64,000 bases of DNA from a virus: the IMG/VR virus record IMGVR_UViG_3300032524_000070; one strand, written 5' to 3'. Positions 18,577-46,400 of this stretch are shown piece by piece (positions within the stretch are counted from its first letter, which is position 1; each line of letters starts with the position of its first letter). A program made the translations under genes and the position numbers. The notes under the pieces were generated by a model that saw only the letters and a list, made by a program, of their open reading frames with translations, searched no databases and had not been told where the DNA came from.

Positions 18577-18875
18577 GTCGATTCAACGTGGCTGCGGACA
18601 AGGCCGGAGAGGTCTGTGAACGCTTCGGCTGGGACCGTGGCTGGTCGGCCGCTGGGTGCTACCTGCACCTGGAGGTCAGCGAGTTCATCGAGGCCCTGCG
18701 GGGCAAGGGTGACTCGACCCCTCTGGCAGAGGCAGCCGACGTGCTGTTCGTGCTGCTCTCCACGTGCAAGGCCAACGGCCTCGACGTGGGTGATGTGGTC
18801 GCAGCCCTGGACGCCCGCTGCGCTCGGCTCCTGTCCGGGGCCGAGGACGACAAGTACCGCAAGGCCCCGGAATGA
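18573..18875 (+). CDS. MazG-like nucleotide pyrophosphohydrolase
   Basis: LEVSEFIEA...EAADVL all-alpha NTP-PPase motif. Confidence 0.7.
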   Translation: MSRFNVAADKAGEVCERFGWDRGWSAAGCYLHLEVSEFIEALRGKGDSTPLAEAADVLFVLLSTCKANGLDVGDVVAALDARCARLLSGAEDDKYRKAPE

Positions 18876-19573
18876 TCTCGCGGGCAGCCATCAAGCACCT
18901 GATGAAGGTGGGGCTCATCAAGGTGACGCCCGACCCCGTGAAGATCGGGCCGAACTCCATTGACCTGCGGCTCGGGGACACCCTCCGCATCTACCACAGC
19001 ACCGAGAACAGGGTCCCCATCACGGACCCCTACCGCGAGGTGCGCTACTGGGCCATCGACCCGAAGAATCCCCCACCCCTGCTCGACGTGCCGCTGCGGA
19101 AGGACGGTCGGTGGCTGCTCATCCCCGGCCAGTTCTACTTGGGCTGCACCGTGGAAGAGACCTACTGCCGTGGGGTCGTCCCGCACCTTGATGGTCGCTC
19201 GACCTGCGGGCGGCTCTCCATCGAGGCCCACAAGACCGCAGGGGTCGGGGACAACGGCTTCCGGGGCCGGTGGACGTTGGAGATCGAGGTGACAGAGCCG
19301 GTGCTGGTGACGCCGGGTGACCGGCTGTTCCAGATCTACTTCACCCCCGCGTGGGGTGAGGGGCTGGCCTACCTCATCCAGTCGAGGTTCGACGGCACCG
19401 CTGCGTGGTTGAACAAGGACGACCCGAACTACGTGGACATCGGCCCGATGATGCCGGATGGGGAACCCACCGGGACGGCCCCGCTGCTGGAGCTGGACGA
19501 CCTCTACGGGGACGACAGCGGGCACCACTACCAGGGCTCCGAGGTCATCCGGGGGCCATCTCCGCTCGACTAG
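18872..19573 (+). CDS. dcd: dCTP deaminase
   Basis: PNSIDLRLG, GRSTCGRL, HKTAG.GD.GFRG.WTLEI, QIYF. Confidence 0.88.
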   Translation: MISRAAIKHLMKVGLIKVTPDPVKIGPNSIDLRLGDTLRIYHSTENRVPITDPYREVRYWAIDPKNPPPLLDVPLRKDGRWLLIPGQFYLGCTVEETYCRGVVPHLDGRSTCGRLSIEAHKTAGVGDNGFRGRWTLEIEVTEPVLVTPGDRLFQIYFTPAWGEGLAYLIQSRFDGTAAWLNKDDPNYVDIGPMMPDGEPTGTAPLLELDDLYGDDSGHHYQGSEVIRGPSPLD

Positions 19574-19575
19574 GG

Positions 19576-20406
19576 CTACCAGTCGTACTTGCCGCCCCGG
19601 CGGTCGAATCGCTCCTGTCGGAAGTCCACCGACGCCCAGGCCTCCTCGACGCCGACATCAAGGATGGACGGGCCGTAGACGTGCCCTGCTGGCCCACCGG
19701 AGTAGAAGCGGCCCAGCGGGTCGATGAGGGCATAGGAGTAGGACATCAGCTCGTTGGTCTCTGCGACCGGGGCGAGGCCGATGGAGGCCAGGTCCGTGTG
19801 CCGTGCGACCCACGATGCGAACTGCTCGTCGGTGATGAGCAGATCGTCAATGCCGTCGTTCTGCCCGGCGACCGGGAGCACCTGGAACGCCTTCCAGCGG
19901 TCAGGGCGGAACACCCGGATGAAGTCGCTGAAGTCCTCCTGCCAGTTGAAGGCCGTGATGACGCTGTTGAGCTTCACCTTGACCCCGGCCTTGCGGCACT
20001 TGGCAGCCAGCTTGACCATGCGTTCGACGTGGCCCCACTCGCCTCGACCCAGGCGGACTTCGACCTGTTCGTTGAGCGAGTCCAGTGAGAGGCCGACCCA
20101 GTCGAGCTGGTCAGCGCAGGCGTCGAGCAGGGGTTGGAGCCGGGCTCCGTTCGTGACGATGGTGGTGACCATGCCCAGCTCGTGGGAGAGCTGGACCAGA
20201 TCCTTGATGTTCGGGTGGAGGGTGGGCTCCCCGCCGACGAAGGTGATCTTCTCGACCCCGGCGTCCGCAAGCTGGGCGACTACCTGCTCGGTCTGGTCGT
20301 TGGAGAGTCGCCCGTCCACGTCCTTGAACGTGGAGTAGCAGAAGCGGCACCGGAGGTTGCACTCCTTCAACAGGAAGAAGTTCACGGCTGGCGGGAGGGT
20401 GCTCAC
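19576..20406 (-). CDS. Viperin-family radical SAM enzyme (pVip/RSAD2-like)
   Basis: CNLRCRFC, KITFVGGEP, TNG, SLDS, KLNSVI, RWKAFQ, GQND, SYALIDPLGRF, SILDVGV and terminal RGGKYDW, all colinear with viperin. Confidence 0.9.
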   Translation of the reverse strand: MSTLPPAVNFFLLKECNLRCRFCYSTFKDVDGRLSNDQTEQVVAQLADAGVEKITFVGGEPTLHPNIKDLVQLSHELGMVTTIVTNGARLQPLLDACADQLDWVGLSLDSLNEQVEVRLGRGEWGHVERMVKLAAKCRKAGVKVKLNSVITAFNWQEDFSDFIRVFRPDRWKAFQVLPVAGQNDGIDDLLITDEQFASWVARHTDLASIGLAPVAETNELMSYSYALIDPLGRFYSGGPAGHVYGPSILDVGVEEAWASVDFRQERFDRRGGKYDW

Positions 20407-20642
20407 TTCGCGGTCACCTTGACCAGCGGGGTTCCGGGGTTGAGTGCCGTGTCCTCCTCGTCACCTAGGATGCAGTGGGTGGCGTCCACGCTGATGTCCC
20501 AGAAGTCGGTGCTCTTGTAGACCTTGCCCCGACCGATCCTGACCTGACCCTCGTTGGCGGCCAGGATGCTCATGTCGTGCTTCTCGCACAGGGCCATCAG
20601 GTCCCGGGCGAACGCTTCATAGTCGGTCAGGACGCGGGCCAT
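20403..20642 (-). CDS. Hypothetical protein
   Basis: Overlap-coupled within the viperin operon. Confidence 0.6.
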   Translation of the reverse strand: MARVLTDYEAFARDLMALCEKHDMSILAANEGQVRIGRGKVYKSTDFWDISVDATHCILGDEEDTALNPGTPLVKVTAK

Positions 20643-20914
20643 CAGGAGCACTCCGTCAGGGACTCAGGGTGGACAAGCCACCACTCGCCGTGGCGGTCGA
20701 GGCAGCAGGCGTAGCCATGGGTCTTGGTGAAGCCGAACAGGACCATGCGGACGGTGGCACCACGGGGGAACGCCGACTCGATGCCGCCGTTCGTGCCGTT
20801 GACCACCATGCCGGGGGTCAGGTCGCAGCCGGTCGCCGCGTCCACGAGGACGTGGGGACAGTTCTCAGCCTTGCGGCGGGCGTCGAAGCCGAAGTCCATG
20901 GGCAGGTTGATCAT
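20642..20914 (-). CDS. Hypothetical protein
   Basis: Overlap-coupled. Confidence 0.6.
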   Translation of the reverse strand: MINLPMDFGFDARRKAENCPHVLVDAATGCDLTPGMVVNGTNGGIESAFPRGATVRMVLFGFTKTHGYACCLDRHGEWWLVHPESLTECS

Positions 20915-21525
20915 CGGGCCTTCCAGAAGTAGGTGCGGCGGGTCAGACCAGCGGGCCAGCCGTCGCCGTCGTGCAGCTTGTTGCCGGTCATGCTCGCCCA
21001 GTCGAACCCCCGGTGGTAGTCCTCGGGCTTGCCACCCTCGTAGGCGGCTCTGGCCTGGGCGGCTTCGTCACCGGGGCCGATGAGGATGGGGCCTTCCGAG
21101 ATCAGGGGATCAGCCTCGTTCGGGTCCCACATCAGGAGCAGGCGGGCACCGGGCACCGGCTTGGGGAGGGGGGCCACGTCGCAGGAGGTGAAGGGCACCG
21201 GCTTCATGGGCTCCCAGCCCTCGGGCAGCACGGTCGCCAGCACGCGGTCGATGACGTACTGCGGCTGGTTGCTGATGGCGAAGTCCCGCTGACCCTGCTC
21301 GACGTGCCACTTCATTCGGCGAAGTCGGGCCTCGACTGCCGCCTTGACCACTTCGGAGGTGTCGTCCATCAGAACGACCACGCTCGTCGGCAGGTTCGTG
21401 GGCCAGTGGGCGGACCAGTCCGCGTTGGCAGCGAGGGCCGCAGCAGCCTTGGTCAGCATTTCGTCGAGGTTGATGAAGGCCCACTCGGGGATGGCCTTGA
21501 TCTGCTTCTGTTCGGCTTCGTGCAT
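20911..21525 (-). CDS. Hypothetical protein, first gene of the viperin operon
   Basis: GGAG RBS; promoter motif at 21541..21568. Confidence 0.65.
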   Translation of the reverse strand: MHEAEQKQIKAIPEWAFINLDEMLTKAAAALAANADWSAHWPTNLPTSVVVLMDDTSEVVKAAVEARLRRMKWHVEQGQRDFAISNQPQYVIDRVLATVLPEGWEPMKPVPFTSCDVAPLPKPVPGARLLLMWDPNEADPLISEGPILIGPGDEAAQARAAYEGGKPEDYHRGFDWASMTGNKLHDGDGWPAGLTRRTYFWKAR

Positions 21526-21540
21526 GGTGTCTCCGGGGCT

Positions 21541-21568
21541 ACTACGGGGTGGGTCGGGAGTCTGAGCC
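21541..21568 (-). promoter_or_regulatory. Phage promoter GGCTCAGA-N14-CGTAGT
   Basis: One of 7 copies with exact spacing. Confidence 0.8.
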
Positions 21569-21569
21569 G

Positions 21570-22151
21570 CTACCAGCGACGGTAGCTGCTGCGGTTCCCG
21601 CTGTAGCCGCCCCGGCTGGGCCGCTGGTAGCTCTGGTTGCTGCGGGTCAGATCGTCTGTCGTCTTCCAGCAGAGGTCGGCACAGACATCGTTGCCGCCGG
21701 TCTTGATGCCCGTGTGCTTGTTGGTGCGGACCTTGCTCACGAACTTCGGGGCTCCGCAGTGGCAGACCGGGACGCCCTTCACGGTCGCCCAGCAGTCCCG
21801 CATCCGCAGGATGACCCGCTCGGTGATGGCGTCGATGATGCCCGTGCGGTTGACCCGCTTCTCAGCGGAGGCGATGCCTCGCTCACGACCATCGCGGGCG
21901 GCGTAGACCGCGCAGACCCGGATGGCGTCCTTGGCGACCGCTCGGGTCATGTCGCCTTCGATGGTCGAGTAGACCAGCACCCGGATCTTGCCGTCCGTGT
22001 TCGGGACCTCTCGGGCGAACACCCGTTCCTTGGTCCCCTCGATGCGGACTTCCAGGAAGAGCGCCCTTGCGAACAGGGCCAGCAGTTCGGTCGCCAGCGT
22101 GCGACGGTGGTCTCGGTCGCGGGGGTCGTACTTGCTCGTCGGGTTGGTCAT
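21570..22151 (-). CDS. Hypothetical protein with Cys cluster
   Basis: MTNPTSKY start after GGGAG; promoter at 22182..22209. Confidence 0.65.
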   Translation of the reverse strand: MTNPTSKYDPRDRDHRRTLATELLALFARALFLEVRIEGTKERVFAREVPNTDGKIRVLVYSTIEGDMTRAVAKDAIRVCAVYAARDGRERGIASAEKRVNRTGIIDAITERVILRMRDCWATVKGVPVCHCGAPKFVSKVRTNKHTGIKTGGNDVCADLCWKTTDDLTRSNQSYQRPSRGGYSGNRSSYRRW

Positions 22152-22181
22152 CGTCTTGCTCCCTGTCGTTCGTCCACCTCC

Positions 22182-22268
22182 ACTACTGACGGGGTTATGT
22201 TTCTGAGCCCCAAATCGCAGATAGTTTCCACGAAAATGAGGGCTCAGAACGCAGGGCACGTCAGTAGT
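22182..22268. promoter_or_regulatory. Divergent pair of GGCTCAGA-N14-AGTAGT promoters
   Basis: 22182..22209 (-) and 22241..22268 (+), forming an imperfect inverted repeat. Confidence 0.8.
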
Positions 22269-22288
22269 AGGGGTGGACGGAGAACACG

Positions 22289-22483
22289 ATGGACTGCCGA
22301 ACACGAATCCAGATCCCACGCACCCGTGAGGAGACCCTTCAGCTCTTCCTCGACGCGGACGAGATGCGGGATGAGGCCAACGACTGGCACCCGGACGTGG
22401 ACGGCCTCCACGACGACGCGGACACCTTGACGGCGATGGCCCACACGGTCATGGCGGCGAACAAGTGGGAGTACCCGGCCTGA
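22289..22483 (+). CDS. Small hypothetical protein
   Basis: GGAG RBS; coupled to next gene. Confidence 0.55.
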   Translation: MDCRTRIQIPRTREETLQLFLDADEMRDEANDWHPDVDGLHDDADTLTAMAHTVMAANKWEYPA

Positions 22484-23871
22484 TGGCACGACGACCCCGA
22501 ACGCTGGTGATCTTGAGCTACGGCCTTGGCTGGGACAGCACCGCCATCCTGGTCCGCTGGCTGCTCGATCCATCCAGCCGAGACTTCGACCTCCGCGATC
22601 TCATCGTCGTCACGGCGATGACCGGGGACGAGTTCAAGTCGATGGGCGTCCTGGTCGAGAAGTACATCCTCCCCCTGATGCGAGCCCACGGAGTCCGCTT
22701 CGTTCAGGTAGCTCGCGGCGGGGCCAGCACCCACGACGGCGTGACCATCCTCGACGACTCCCGCTCCCCCACGAAGGTTCACCTCGACGGGGTCTACAAG
22801 CTCTCCGACGAGATGCTTGAGTCCGCCACCGTCCCGCAGTTCGGTGGTGCCCGGCTCTGCTCGCAGAAGCAGAAAGGCGTCCCCCTCGACTTCATCATCG
22901 ACAAGCTGACGCAGGGCCGACCGTTCCGACACGTCATGGGCTTCAACGCCGACGAGTTGAACCGGGTCGCCCGCGACGCCAGCTACTCCACCGTCACCCG
23001 CAAGTCCGAGTACCCGCTGGTCACCTGGGGCTGGGGTCGGGCGAAGCTCTCTGAGTACGTCCGGGACTCCCTCGGGGTCGAGTGGGAGAAGAGCTGCTGC
23101 ACCTTCTGTCCGTTCGCTGGCTCCTGCAAGGCAGAGAAGATGGAGGCCCTGACCTCTCGGTACACCGCCGAGCCCGAAGCCGCCGTGCTGGCCCTGACCA
23201 TCGAGCGTCGGTCCCTGGCGATGAACGTCCGGCAGCCCCTCTTCGCCAAGACATCCCTGTTCGACGTGCTGGAGCAGACCGACCCCGCGCTGGTCGCCCT
23301 GTTCGAGGCCGACTGGAACTCCGCTCCCGACTGGAGCCTCTACCGTGTCCGCCGCAGCTTCCGTGGAGTCGGGCAGGCCGTTCGCAGCCTGGAGTGCATC
23401 AAGTGGGGGTCGAAGGCCCGGATGCTGGCGGAACTGGCGACCCACGGCGAAGTCGAGTGGACCCACGGTTCGCCACGGGTGCTCGTCCAGCGCAAGGTCG
23501 AGGACGTGTTCCCGGTCAACGAGGACATGTACGTCGTCGCCCCGGCTGGTGTGACCCCGAAGACCAACGCGATGTTCGACGCCTACTGGGTCCGCACCGG
23601 AGAGGTCGAGGCAGCCCGAGCCGCAGGGGCCGATGAGCCTTGCCCGAAGGCACGGGCGATGGGCTTCGTGCTCCGGTACGTCGTGACCCACGCGGCCAAC
23701 ACCTTCACCAAGGGCGATGTCCAGCGAGCCGCAGGAGCCTCCGGGGTCTTCACGGCAGAGGCAGGGGACGCCTTCAATGAGCTGAAGGCCGAGGGCCGGT
23801 TCGGCAAGGTCGGCAAGCGCATGACTCTGGCCCCCGCCGCCTGGGGCTCAGTCACCTCCCCATCCCCGTAG
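22483..23871 (+). CDS. PAPS-reductase-like (PP-loop) protein
   Basis: SYGLGWDST, CSQKQK, GFNADE..R, YPLVTWGW, KSCCTFCPF. Confidence 0.72.
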   Translation: MARRPRTLVILSYGLGWDSTAILVRWLLDPSSRDFDLRDLIVVTAMTGDEFKSMGVLVEKYILPLMRAHGVRFVQVARGGASTHDGVTILDDSRSPTKVHLDGVYKLSDEMLESATVPQFGGARLCSQKQKGVPLDFIIDKLTQGRPFRHVMGFNADELNRVARDASYSTVTRKSEYPLVTWGWGRAKLSEYVRDSLGVEWEKSCCTFCPFAGSCKAEKMEALTSRYTAEPEAAVLALTIERRSLAMNVRQPLFAKTSLFDVLEQTDPALVALFEADWNSAPDWSLYRVRRSFRGVGQAVRSLECIKWGSKARMLAELATHGEVEWTHGSPRVLVQRKVEDVFPVNEDMYVVAPAGVTPKTNAMFDAYWVRTGEVEAARAAGADEPCPKARAMGFVLRYVVTHAANTFTKGDVQRAAGASGVFTAEAGDAFNELKAEGRFGKVGKRMTLAPAAWGSVTSPSP

Positions 23872-30165: not shown

Positions 30166-30737
30166 TTGAAGCGGAGGTCACCTGTCAGTGCGTTCAGATC
30201 GCCCTGCCCGACCTGCGGTTGTCCATGGTGAACGGGCAGGTCGTCTACTTGGATGAAGCCGATGCCAAGGCGTCGGTGGACCTTCAACGGGCGTGGAGGG
30301 CAAAGGCCGTCATCGTCAAGTACATCCAGCGATTCAGAGAGCGGAGAGCCGCTCGGCTGGCCCTTCCCGCAGCCCCGGCTGCCTCGATGGTGGGATTCCT
30401 GCCGGAGATGGGCCAACCGGAGCAGACCGTGGTGGTCGATGTCGATGCGATTGCGGCACGGGTCGCAGAGCTGCTGGAGCCCCGCCTTGTCGCCAGCATC
30501 ACGGCCTCTGTGGTGGCCGCTCTGCGCTCCGAAGGCCCCGTGGTGACCGTTGGTGCGCCTGTAGCGTCCGCCCCTCCACAGACGGCCTGGGCGGATGCTC
30601 CGGTGTTCATCCCGTCGAGGATCGGCAACGAGCTGGAGGCTAACCTTGAACTCCAGGCGACCACGGCCACTGAGGGGGTAGTGTCTGACGCGGCTGCTGC
30701 CTTGCGGGCGGCCCGGAAGAAGCAGGAGCCGACATGA
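30162..30737 (+). CDS. Hypothetical protein
   Basis: ATGA overlaps on both sides. Confidence 0.6.
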   Translation: MIEAEVTCQCVQIALPDLRLSMVNGQVVYLDEADAKASVDLQRAWRAKAVIVKYIQRFRERRAARLALPAAPAASMVGFLPEMGQPEQTVVVDVDAIAARVAELLEPRLVASITASVVAALRSEGPVVTVGAPVASAPPQTAWADAPVFIPSRIGNELEANLELQATTATEGVVSDAAAALRAARKKQEPT

Positions 30738-31738
30738 GCAAGAAAAAGACCCTCGGGGTCGGGCTGGACATCGGGACGATGAACATCGTCTCCGCTCGCA
30801 GCGTCGGTGGCAGCATCGAGACGAAGCGGATGCGGGACGCCTTCATGTCCATGCCCCCGAACAAGACCCGGATGCTCAAGCTCTCGCAGACCAGCTTCGT
30901 CGAGCGTGAACATGACGTGCTCCTCCTGGGCGACGCAGCGATGGAGATGGCCAACGTATTCGGCGGCAACCCCCGCCGTCCCCTGGCCGGTGGGCTCATC
31001 GCTGCCGGGGAGTCCGATGCCCTGAGCGTGTTGAAGCTCCTGATCAAGAACGTGCTCGGGGAGCCGCAGATCGAGAACGAGGTCTGCTACTTCAGCGTCC
31101 CGGCCCCACCCCTCGACCAGCCCGGCAAGGACATCATCTACCACCGTGGGGTCTTCGAGCGCATCGTCGAGGAGTGCGGGTTCGACCCCTTCCCCGCCAA
31201 CGAGGCGATGGCCATCATCTTCTCCGAGTGCGCTGCCGAGGGCTTCAGCGGTCTGTCCTTCAGCTTCGGCTCCGGGATGACCAACGTCGCGCTCGCGCTG
31301 AACACGACCGAGGTGCTGTCCTTCTCCGTCCAGCGAGGCGGTGACTGGATCGATGAGCACGCAGCTCAGGCGGTGGGGATGACCCAGGCTCAGATGTGCG
31401 CCCTCAAGGAGGGTGGCATCGACCTGATGACCCACGCGACGCAGCCGGAGGAGGCGGTCGCCCTGTACTACAAGGCGATGATCGACTTCGCCCTGGACCA
31501 GGTGGCGGCCCACTTCGTCGCGCAGTCCGGCCAGTTCACCTTCCCCAAGCCCATCCCCATCATCGTGTCCGGTGGGACGAGCATGGCGGGCGGGTTCCTC
31601 GATTTCTTCAACAACGTCTGGCGCAAGAAGAAGCGGAAGTTCCCCATCGAGGTCAGCGAGATCCGCTCGGCCAAGGACCCGCTCAACGCGGTGGCGTTCG
31701 GGATGCTCATCCAGGCGATGCAGGAGTACGAGGAGTGA
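30734..31738 (+). CDS. Actin-fold ATPase (MreB/MamK/ParM-like)
   Basis: Phosphate-1 GLDIGT, NEAMA, phosphate-2 SFGSGMTN, GGDWID, adenosine VSGGTS. Confidence 0.85.
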   Translation: MSKKKTLGVGLDIGTMNIVSARSVGGSIETKRMRDAFMSMPPNKTRMLKLSQTSFVEREHDVLLLGDAAMEMANVFGGNPRRPLAGGLIAAGESDALSVLKLLIKNVLGEPQIENEVCYFSVPAPPLDQPGKDIIYHRGVFERIVEECGFDPFPANEAMAIIFSECAAEGFSGLSFSFGSGMTNVALALNTTEVLSFSVQRGGDWIDEHAAQAVGMTQAQMCALKEGGIDLMTHATQPEEAVALYYKAMIDFALDQVAAHFVAQSGQFTFPKPIPIIVSGGTSMAGGFLDFFNNVWRKKKRKFPIEVSEIRSAKDPLNAVAFGMLIQAMQEYEE

Positions 31739-42997: not shown

Positions 42998-43025
42998 ACT
43001 ACGGGCCACATCGACGTTCTGAGCC
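42998..43025 (-). promoter_or_regulatory. Promoter GGCTCAGA-N14-CGTAGT
   Basis: Exact consensus. Confidence 0.8.
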
Positions 43026-45391: not shown

Positions 45392-45419
45392 ACTACGCTC
45401 CTGGTCGATGGTCTGAGCC
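45392..45419 (-). promoter_or_regulatory. Promoter GGCTCAGA-N14-CGTAGT
   Basis: Exact consensus. Confidence 0.8.
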
Positions 45420-46372: not shown

Positions 46373-46400
46373 ACTACGCCTGGCCCCCGTCGTCTGAGCC
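46373..46400 (-). promoter_or_regulatory. Promoter GGCTCAGA-N14-CGTAGT
   Basis: Exact consensus. Confidence 0.8.

What the first reader, a model, noticed from the sequence alone, without database searches (positions are those of the whole stretch)
19576..21568. Phage-encoded viperin as last gene of a phage-promoter operon
Seen: a complete viperin motif set, including the C-terminal RGGKYDW, ends a four-gene overlap-coupled operon (21525>20914>20642>20406) behind the GGCTCAGA-N14-CGTAGT motif, with codon usage like the rest of the genome. Established: viperins/pVips make chain-terminating ddhNTPs as antiviral defence. Inference: the phage has domesticated an antiviral enzyme, either against competing phages or to modulate transcription. 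The usual N(Y/W)H motif before the CX3CX2C reads NFF, so the substrate may differ.
Basis: partly seen in the sequence, partly recalled or inferred. Interest (0 to 1): 0.85.

Follow-up and report, generated by a model that had tools for sequence, protein, structure and literature searches.

The report
Phage-borne viperin with altered signature motif
A large uncultured phage carries, as a long-kept gene of its own, an intact copy of the antiviral enzyme viperin, and it belongs to a branch seen so far only in phage-like DNA in which a hallmark histidine near the active site has become phenylalanine.

Summary
ORF 19576-20406(-) is a full-length viperin-family radical SAM enzyme: NCBIfam NF038283 scores 267 bits (cutoff 180), PADLOC pVip gives 2.5e-78, and the AF2 model matches mouse viperin-CTP at TM 0.92. 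It ends an overlap-coupled gene string behind GGCTCAGA-N14-CGTAGT, a motif with 6 copies in the window and 0 expected.

The window is phage DNA. Three related phage contigs carry the viperin in the same position, at 57-64% identity, like their backbone proteins, so it is inherited with the phage genome.

Phage-context viperins form one clade (IQ-TREE 100/96), nested among Myxococcota-type bacterial viperins. All members with the residue lack the His of the N-phi-H signature (Phe, once Ala). The inner subclade also lacks the base-pocket Asn. All 78 nearest cellular homologues read, and all 24 IMG/VR viral homologues, keep His. The same His-to-Phe change occurs in a crystallised Trichoderma paralogue (PDB 9DFN; F40H variant 9DFU).

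The three upstream genes are not conserved in relatives; a fourth gene further upstream is. Function is inferred only: a modified NTP made during infection, either a ddhNTP chain terminator or a different product. The scan had not noted this on other DNA.

Verdict: new variant of a known kind; interest about 0.66.

The parts
19576..20406 (-). Viperin-family radical SAM enzyme, 276 aa, GTG start. Signature N9-F10-F11, cluster Cys16/20/23, GGEP 58-61, beta8-loop G237/H242, C-terminal RGGKYDW.
20403..20642 (-). ORFan of 79 aa. Its ATG overlaps the upstream stop (TGATG) and its stop overlaps the viperin GTG (GTGA).
   Evidence: Sequence and gene call. No family hit. No homologue in related phages.
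20642..20914 (-). ORFan of 90 aa. Its start overlaps the upstream stop (ATGA).
   Evidence: No family hit. No homologue in relatives.
20911..21525 (-). ORFan of 204 aa, the first gene behind the promoter motif.
   Evidence: No family hit. The ESM Atlas gives nothing usable. No homologue in relatives.
21541..21568 (-). Promoter-like bipartite motif GGCTCAGA-N14-CGTAGT, 16 nt before the ATG at 21525.
   Evidence: (4 exact copies, 0 expected). The motif is conserved in the related phages L002-L004.
21570..22151 (-). Conserved upstream gene (193 aa from the ATG at 22151) of unknown function, with a C-terminal Cys-rich region and an RGG-like tail. Homologues at 53-55% identity head the viperin transcription unit in L002 and L004.
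   Evidence: No family hit. The AF2 model is unusable.
22182..22209 (-). Second copy of the motif (GGCTCAGA-N14-AGTAGT), driving the conserved upstream gene.
22241..22268 (+). Divergent copy of the motif, driving the + strand genes 22289-23871.
18872..19573 (+). dCTP deaminase-like gene, convergent with the viperin. The two stop codons lie 2 nt apart. The arrangement is conserved in L002 and L004.
   Evidence: (PF22769, 3.5e-28).

Best explanation
This is a catalytically intact viperin-family radical SAM enzyme. An ancestor of a lineage of roughly 142-kb, high-GC tailed phages captured it from a Myxococcota-like host, and the phage genome has inherited it vertically since.

It is transcribed from the phage's own bipartite promoter class, GGCTCA-N16-CGTAGT. 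In this window that class drives accessory and nucleotide-metabolism genes rather than the annotated virion genes, so I infer expression during infection.

Inferred mechanism: with SAM and its [4Fe-4S] cluster the enzyme abstracts a hydrogen from a nucleoside triphosphate. It releases a modified NTP, most likely a 3'-deoxy-3',4'-didehydro chain terminator of the kind cellular viperins make. That product would poison the polymerases of co-infecting phages, or host transcription, while the phage's own gene expression tolerates it.

The clade-wide changes are His11 to Phe, Met227 to Leu, and Asn237 to Gly or Ser at the base pocket. They suggest that base or sugar handling differs from that of cellular pVips.

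Shown here: family membership, fold, phage location, vertical inheritance, purifying selection, and the clade-specific signature.

Inferred: the product, the timing of expression and the beneficiary.

Rough sub-odds: true viperin-family enzyme 0.97; phage-borne 0.95; catalytically active 0.85; product is a ddhNTP 0.5; main use is inter-phage competition 0.35.
For: Family and fold:
- NF038283 scores 267 bits against a cutoff of 180. PADLOC pVip gives 2.5e-78.
- The AF2 model has pLDDT 96.9. Its TM is 0.92 and rmsd 1.8 A to mouse viperin-CTP 6Q2P and to 9DFN.
- 41 of the 46 positions that are at least 90% conserved in 208 homologues are kept, including all cluster, GGEP, RWK and C-terminal R-G-Y residues.

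Phage identity:
- A sheath-like protein, a minor-tail domain, ThyX and homing endonucleases are present.
- The contig is 142,590 bp.
- The stretch is held in full by runs labelled viral metagenome.

Vertical inheritance:
- The gene sits in the same place in L002, L003 and L004.
- Viperin identity there is 57-64%. Backbone proteins compare at 64% (VWA), 68-71% (DCD), 65-74% (465-aa protein) and 71-82% (Volactin).
- The gene's GC equals each genome's GC, including a 39%-GC phage.
- dN/dS is 0.14 for L002 against L004.

Clade:
- IQ-TREE places all 8 phage-context sequences in one clade at 100/96, inside a 15-row clade at 98/96.

Promoter:
- The motif is conserved across the phage family and lies before the viperin unit.
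Against: - No activity, product or phenotype could be measured.
- The His of the N-phi-H signature is missing. This signature is, from my recollection of Lachowicz et al. 2021, treated as diagnostic of ddh-synthases. The product may therefore not be a ddhNTP.
- The base-pocket Asn, which Shomar et al. link to promiscuous ddhNTP synthesis, is Gly here.
- No nucleotide kinase partner is nearby, unlike many pVips.
- Only 64 kb of about 142 kb is visible. I could not establish whether the phage uses host RNA polymerase or how it would tolerate its own product.
- Context is clearly phage for the window's family and for L005. It is only phage-like (dense small unannotated ORFs) for L006, L011 and the P0006 contig.
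Confidence: 0.5

Rival explanations
1. Same scaffold, different chemistry. The Phe-type clade is no longer a 3'-dehydratase. It performs another radical reaction on a nucleotide, or acts on another substrate such as a dNTP, a modified base nucleotide or a host immune nucleotide. It would serve phage nucleotide metabolism, DNA modification or counter-defence.
For: - Three positions that are otherwise near-invariant changed together in the clade. H11 is 95% His elsewhere, M227 is 96% Met, and N9 is 98% Asn.
- The pocket Asn237 is also lost in the inner subclade.
- All 78 nearest cellular homologues read keep His.
- A fungal paralogue with the same natural Phe was crystallised together with an F40H variant (9DFN and 9DFU). 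This suggests the depositors regard the residue as functionally decisive.
- The neighbours are nucleotide-metabolism genes: DCD, a MazG-like gene, ThyX and a PAPS-reductase-like gene.
- A preprint notes annotated viperins inside phage DNA-hypermodification gene neighbourhoods.
Against: - Every other catalytic and triphosphate-region position is retained, and the C-terminal RGGxYxW tail is intact.
- 9DFN still binds CTP and SAM, according to its title.
- No partner enzyme is conserved next to the gene in the different phage lineages.
- I could not find what the Phe-type fungal enzyme makes.
Confidence: 0.3
2. An ordinary prophage-carried defence gene. The phage is temperate and the viperin is a moron expressed in the lysogen to protect the host cell from other phages.
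For: Prophage-encoded defence genes are common (papers listed). The nearest cellular relatives are defence-island pVips.
Against: - The gene lies between virion modules, not at an attachment-site or moron hotspot.
- It shares its promoter class with many other accessory genes.
- It is kept at the same place over about 40% protein divergence.
- Neither the Pfam sweep of 60 other window proteins nor the earlier scans of the operon and its neighbours turned up an integrase or a sigma factor. HTH-type and ROS/MucR-type domains do occur, so a repressor is not excluded.
- The sequence is present in virome runs.
Confidence: 0.08
3. A catalytically crippled decoy. The captured host viperin has become a binder of ddhNTPs or NTPs that shields the phage from the pVips common in its presumed Myxococcota hosts.
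For: The lost His and Asn are substrate-side residues. The nearest cellular viperins are from the presumed host phylum.
Against: All three cluster cysteines, GGEP and the other SAM-side positions are retained under purifying selection. A one-to-one binder is a poor answer to an enzyme-made nucleotide pool.
Confidence: 0.05
4. Not phage at all. The gene is a bacterial gene in a mis-binned or chimeric contig.
For: The phage cannot be matched to any cultured phage. Most of its proteins have no PHROG family.
Against: - The synteny was assembled independently in four samples, on contigs of 142.6, 141.7, 69.6 and 13.5 kb.
- Phage-type genes lie on both sides.
- The stretch is held by virome runs.
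- No cellular genome among 185,579 species holds a closer relative than 55%.
Confidence: 0.02

Closest known systems
Prokaryotic viperins (pVips; Bernheim et al. 2021, Nature 589:120, cited from recollection and from the reviews read)
   Same: It has the same family model, fold, length, cluster motif, GGEP and C-terminal tail. It is 50-55% identical to Myxococcota pVips and nested among them in the tree.
   Different: It is encoded in a phage genome and inherited with it, not in a cellular defence island, and it has no kinase partner. His11 is Phe, Met227 is Leu, and the pocket Asn237 is Gly or Ser. His is present in all 78 of the nearest cellular homologues that could be read.
Second viperin-like enzyme of Trichoderma virens (PDB 9DFN; F40H variant 9DFU)
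   Same: It is the only solved viperin relative with a natural Phe at the His position (N-Y-F against N-F-F). It is the best sequence match in the PDB, at TM 0.92, and was crystallised with CTP and SAM.
   Different: It is eukaryotic and only 35% identical, so the change arose independently. Its beta8 loop is different and shorter. I could not find what it produces.
Vertebrate viperin RSAD2 (mouse, PDB 6Q2P with CTP)
   Same: The fold matches at TM 0.92 and rmsd 1.8 A with 36% identity. The radical SAM core and the C-terminal RGGKY(V/D)W are shared.
   Different: The phage enzyme has no N-terminal membrane helix. Mouse His79 aligns with Phe11, Cys314 with Gly237, and Lys319 with His242 (and for residue roles).
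Other virus-borne viperins in IMG/VR
   Same: They show that viruses have taken up viperins repeatedly. One is a 14-member clade inside phage replication modules (DNA polymerase, helicase, primase). Another is a giant-virus clade that lies beside an NCLDV capsid gene.
   Different: All 24 that were read keep the canonical His, reading SFH, NWH or NYH. They are 33-40% identical and fall in other parts of the tree. None belongs to the window's clade.
MoaA (GTP 3',8-cyclase)
   Same: It shares the radical SAM core. The N-terminal 170 residues align.
   Different: TIGR02666 scores 85 bits against a cutoff of 284. TM is 0.66-0.67 at rmsd above 6 A. The window protein's C-terminal half and tail are viperin-type.

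Membership tests
Viperin family (NCBIfam NF038283 viperin_w_prok; PADLOC pVip) | Whole-protein score above the curated family cutoff | tested here: met
   267.4 bits against a cutoff of 180. PADLOC pVip models give 2.5e-78 and 1.3e-77.
Viperin family | Radical SAM CX3CX2C cluster motif and GGEP SAM-binding motif | tested here: met
   C16, C20, C23 and G58-G59-E60-P61 are present, and they are invariant in alignments A2 and in the 223-row alignment.
Viperin family (ddh-synthase signature N-phi-H-X4-CX3CX2C, from my recollection of Lachowicz et al. 2021) | Histidine two residues after the conserved Asn, before the cluster loop | tested here: not met
   The window reads N9-F10-F11. In the 15-row clade the position is Phe in 13, Ala in 1, and missing from P0091's truncated gene call, whose upstream-extended frame reads N-Y-F. 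It is His in 95% of 208 other homologues, in 78/78 nearest cellular loci read and in 24/24 IMG/VR viral homologues. It aligns with mouse His79.
Viperin family | C-terminal tail R-G-G-x-Y-x-W | tested here: met
   RGGKYDW forms the last seven residues. R270, G272 and Y274 are conserved family-wide.
Viperin family | Viperin fold (partial TIM barrel plus C-terminal extension), closer to viperins than to MoaA or other radical SAM enzymes | tested here: met
   The AF2 model has pLDDT 96.9 and pTM 0.93. Its TM is 0.91-0.93 to 6Q2P, 9DFN and 9DGW, against 0.66-0.67 to MoaA.
Prokaryotic 'promiscuous pocket' viperins (Shomar et al. 2023) | Conserved Asn in the beta8 loop at the position of mouse Cys314 | tested here: not met
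   The window has Gly237. The inner phage subclade has Gly or Ser. The position is Asn in 62 of the 78 nearest cellular loci read.
pVip anti-phage defence system | Location in a cellular defence island, often with a nucleotide kinase | tested here: not met
   The gene lies inside a phage genome between virion modules, and no kinase domain was found among its neighbours.
pVip / viperin | Makes 3'-deoxy-3',4'-didehydro-NTP and inhibits phage or viral polymerases | not testable with these tools
   This needs anaerobic enzymology or LC-MS of expressing cells, plus plaque or reporter assays.
MoaA | Score above the family cutoff | tested here: not met
   TIGR02666 scores 85.2 bits against a cutoff of 284, and only residues 14-169 align.

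The most novel reading that the evidence does not exclude
The Phe-type viperins form a phage-restricted enzyme class with a new reaction outcome. Loss of the signature His and of the base-pocket Asn would redirect the C4' radical chemistry to a product other than a ddhNTP, or to a different nucleotide substrate. That would give phages a previously unknown modified nucleotide, used as a weapon against competitors or as a counter to the pVips of their Myxococcota-like hosts.
Probability: 0.3. Interest if true: 0.85.

Novelty: new variant of a known kind. Interest (0 to 1): 0.66.

Why it matters
Viperin is one of the few immune enzymes shared by bacteria, archaea and animals, and it is described as a weapon of cells against viruses. 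Here a virus holds the weapon as a long-standing gene of its own. Public viral contigs show this happened several times independently: in this clade, in a second phage clade inside replication modules, and in giant viruses.

That opens three testable questions. Do phages use chain-terminating nucleotides against rival phages or against the host? How does the carrier phage escape its own product? What does the signature histidine do? Nature has replaced that histidine with phenylalanine twice, in this phage clade and in a fungal paralogue.

The enzyme is small, folds confidently in silico, and could be assayed with existing viperin protocols.

Tried and rejected
- Near-identity DNA search of 10 kb against 50,697 GenBank phages gave no match.
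- tblastn of the viperin against the same phages gave only generic radical SAM hits below 38% identity, mostly partial.
- PHROGs has no viperin family. The best hit is a generic radical SAM family at 3e-13 over residues 14-148.
- The first IMG/VR scan, with the single sequence, found nothing. The alignment-based scan was needed.
- No whole genome is held for the window. Records behind the Logan loci cannot be searched. I therefore could not look for an RNA polymerase, sigma factor, integrase or DNA polymerase in the unseen 78 kb. Earlier notes on this genome mention none.
- The upstream ORFs and the conserved 193-aa gene gave no Pfam, NCBIfam, PADLOC or PHROG hit. The ESM Atlas gave nothing usable. 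The AF2 model of the 193-aa protein from 3 sequences has pLDDT 38 and was discarded.
- dN/dS for the window against its relatives is saturated or biased by GC3 (dS 0.6-1.3), so I did not use it. Only the closest pair, L002 against L004, is quoted.
- I could not find the role of mouse His79 or the paper behind PDB 9DFN/9DFU in the held library. Bernheim et al. 2021 is not held.
- Sequencing runs: no RNA holder is listed.
- No complex prediction was sent, because no binding claim is made.
It is not a conserved partner.
Full report
**What is at the coordinates**

ORF 19576-20406 on the minus strand encodes 276 residues. It begins at a GTG that overlaps the stop codon of the gene before it (GTGA), with an AAGGTGA ribosome-binding site about 8 nt upstream.

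- Pfam sees only a generic radical SAM domain.
- The curated NCBIfam model for viperins, NF038283, scores 267 bits against a cutoff of 180. MoaA scores 85 against 284.
- The PADLOC pVip models give 2.5e-78.
- Every solved viperin or viperin-like enzyme matches over the full length at about 1e-45.
- An AlphaFold2 model built on 43 homologues has mean pLDDT 96.9. It superposes on mouse viperin with CTP (6Q2P) at TM 0.92 and rmsd 1.8 A. MoaA reaches only 0.66-0.67.

The observation of a complete viperin is therefore confirmed.

**The operon and the promoter**

Four reading frames are chained by overlapping stop and start codons at 20914 (ATGA), 20642 (TGATG) and 20406 (GTGA). The motif GGCTCAGA-N14-CGTAGT lies 16 nt before the first ATG.

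The exact pattern occurs four times in the window against 0.00 expected in shuffles. If the first base of the second box may be A, there are six copies, each a few tens of bases before a start codon.

One of these copies drives the gene just upstream (21570-22151). That gene ends one base before the operon's own promoter. No terminator-like hairpin lies anywhere in 18800-22600 on the relevant strand. Read-through from the upstream promoter is therefore likely.

The viperin's stop lies 2 nt from the stop of a convergent dCTP-deaminase-like gene.

**Is it a phage?**

The window has uniform 62-68% GC. Its genes include:
- a 1769-aa protein with a tail-sheath C-terminus, a thymidylate synthase ThyX and homing endonucleases;
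- a minor-tail domain, DUF2460 and an actin-like Volactin.

Most proteins match no PHROG family, and no cultured phage is similar at the DNA level. This is a deeply divergent phage.

The identical viperin protein is recorded on a contig of 142,590 bp. The stretch is held in full by runs labelled viral metagenome from one study and freshwater metagenome from another. Some of these may be the source of the assembly.

**Relatives and inheritance**

The closest viperin homologues in the 5.8-billion-protein collection are 58-64% identical. Three of them lie on contigs of 141.7, 69.6 and 13.5 kb that share the window's gene order. That order runs from the 826-aa VWA protein, through DUF3307 and/or the convergent dCTP deaminase, to the viperin, small genes, ThyX, and then the Volactin-containing structural module.

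Identity to the window protein in these contigs:

| Protein | Identity |
|---|---|
| Viperin | 57-64% |
| VWA protein | 64% |
| dCTP deaminase | 68-71% |
| 465-aa protein | 65-74% |
| Volactin | 71-82% |
| ThyX | 43-45% |

The viperin has diverged in step with the backbone. Its GC and GC3 equal those of each genome that carries it. For the closest pair, L002 against L004, dN/dS is 0.09/0.66 = 0.14. This is vertical inheritance under purifying selection, not a recent pick-up.

The promoter motif is also conserved in the family as GGCTCA[GA][AC]-N14-CGTAGT. It stands in front of the viperin transcription unit in all three relatives.

**The upstream genes**

They are not. Neither tblastn nor blastp finds them in the relatives. 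They match no family in Pfam, NCBIfam, PADLOC or PHROGs.

In L002 and L004 the gene directly before the viperin is a different, hydrophobic protein of about 100 aa.

What is conserved is the 193-aa gene at 21570-22151. It is 53-55% identical in L002 and L004, where it is the first gene behind the promoter. Its function stayed unknown, and its model was unusable.

**A clade found in phage-like DNA**

An IQ-TREE analysis of 66 sequences puts all eight viperins with a phage or phage-like context into one clade (100/96), inside a 15-member clade (98/96). That clade is nested among bacterial viperins named Myxococcota, Kofleriaceae and Nannocystis (FastTree agrees).

Besides the window's own phage family, the clade includes:
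- a 39%-GC phage with a phrog_850 protein at 1e-144, an RNA ligase and a homing endonuclease;
- three further contigs made of dense small unannotated ORFs.

Three basal members are of unclear context. The nearest outside branches are cellular: one lies in a defence island with a methylase, a Z1 protein and a helicase, and one lies among housekeeping genes.

A scan of one genome for each of 185,579 prokaryote species found nothing closer than 55%. The best matches are mostly Myxococcota. That points to the donor, and probably the host, phylum.

**What marks the clade**

I took the 46 alignment positions that are at least 90% conserved in 208 other homologues. The clade keeps 41 of them, including the three cluster cysteines, GGEP, the N-G, D-S, G-R, K-x-N, R-W-K and S-Y motifs, and the C-terminal R-G-x-Y.

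It departs systematically at a few positions:

| Position | Other homologues | In the 15-row clade |
|---|---|---|
| H11 | His in 95% | Phe in 13, Ala in 1, absent from one truncated gene call |
| M227 | Met in 96% | Leu in all 15 |
| N9 | Asn in 98% | Ser in 8 |
| S107 | Ser in 100% | Asp in 9 (the window keeps Ser) |

The truncated gene call belongs to the 39%-GC phage. Its upstream-extended frame also reads N-Y-F.

Phe11 aligns with His79 of mouse viperin. In addition, the inner subclade has Gly or Ser where pVips have Asn237. This is the position of mouse Cys314. According to Shomar et al. it is the main base-stabilising residue of the promiscuous prokaryotic pocket.

All 78 of the 80 nearest cellular loci that could be read have His, and 62 have the Asn. 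A few distant representatives (35-45% identical) carry Tyr at the His position, and one or two carry Phe.

**A structural precedent**

The best PDB match, 9DFN, is titled the second viperin-like enzyme from Trichoderma virens with bound CTP and SAM, and it reads N-Y-F. 9DFU is its F40H variant. 9DFW is an engineered first enzyme that carries the mouse beta8 loop.

So Phe at this position is compatible with folding and with binding CTP and SAM. Structural biologists have singled out exactly this residue. I could not find the associated paper or the product of the Phe-type enzyme in the held library.

**Other viral viperins**

An alignment-based scan of IMG/VR found 29 loci, of which 27 are at least 33% identical to the query. 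I read the N-terminal motif in the 24 with a near-full-length match, and all keep His. They fall elsewhere in the tree:
- a 14-member clade that sits in genuine phage replication modules, with a DNA polymerase at 5e-153, a helicase at 1e-144 and primases;
- a giant-virus clade, one member of which lies beside an NCLDV major capsid gene;
- smaller groups.

No GenBank phage record and no PHROG family contains a viperin. In the literature I could search, the only mention of phage viperins is a passing remark. It says that annotated pVips occur in phage DNA-hypermodification gene neighbourhoods. The main viperin evolution papers that I could read do not discuss virus-encoded copies.

**Interpretation**

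The safest reading is that a phage lineage has owned an active viperin-family enzyme for a long time and expresses it from its accessory-gene promoter class.

By analogy with pVips, it would make a chain-terminating ddhNTP. From my recollection of Bernheim et al. 2021 and from the reviews read, pVips make ddhCTP, ddhGTP and ddhUTP and block T7 transcription. A phage transcribed from bipartite promoters of this kind could afford to poison rival phages' polymerases, although I could not verify which polymerase it uses.

The concerted loss of the signature His and the pocket Asn keeps a second reading open at about 0.3: the clade may make something else or act on another nucleotide. A lysogeny-expressed defence gene, a decoy binder and a mis-binned cellular gene are each unlikely, for the reasons given under the rival explanations.

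**Verdict**

This is a new variant of a known kind.

Noticed in passing
L013-L019, L021, L027-L031, L035 (IMG/VR contigs up to 116 kb): A separate 14-member clade of canonical-His viperins (S-F-H motif, low GC) lies inside phage DNA-replication modules. Its neighbours include a DNA polymerase (phrog_1252, 5e-153), a helicase (phrog_62, 1e-144), primases and an exonuclease.
   Followed up: partly
L022, L024-L026, L038 (IMG/VR, several labelled GVMAG): This is a giant-virus viperin clade with an N-W-H motif and a tail ending RGGxYxL. L024 carries an NCLDV major capsid protein 1.6 kb from the viperin, and also an ADP-ribosyltransferase-like gene.
   Followed up: partly
window 21541-21568, 22182-22209, 22241-22268, 42998-43025, 45392-45419, 46373-46400; L002-L004: The bipartite promoter-like motif GGCTCA[GA][AC]-N14-[CA]GTAGT is conserved across the phage family. 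It includes back-to-back divergent pairs. In this window it occurs only before accessory genes, and its second box is of the CGTA type.
   Followed up: partly
L002:5527-7500: The ThyX gene of this relative is 657 aa. The ThyX match is split into two blocks about 1 kb apart in one reading frame, which suggests an intein or an in-frame mobile insertion.
   Followed up: no
L004:5663-6544 and L002:11754-13520: Relatives carry accessory genes that the window lacks at the same place. L004 has a PARP-domain protein and a PAPS-reductase-like protein. L002 has an RNB-plus-dsRBD ribonuclease next to the dCTP deaminase.
   Followed up: no
window 22465-23871 (+): A 468-aa protein has only a faint PAPS-reductase-like (PP-loop) match (phrog_424, 8.6e-4). 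It is driven by the divergent copy of the promoter motif.
   Followed up: no
L121:2049-2999 (protein P0209): A distant viperin homologue (41% identical) also reads N-F-F. It lies on a short contig just downstream of an ECF-sigma-like gene, so this may be another independent loss of the His.
   Followed up: partly
window 19571-19578: The viperin and the convergent dCTP-deaminase gene stop 2 nt apart with no terminator between them. Transcription from the two sides must collide or overlap.
   Followed up: no
window 30734-31738 (+): A Volactin-family actin-like ATPase (Pfam 3.4e-69) lies inside the neck/tail gene block. It is conserved at 71-82% identity in the relatives.
   Followed up: no
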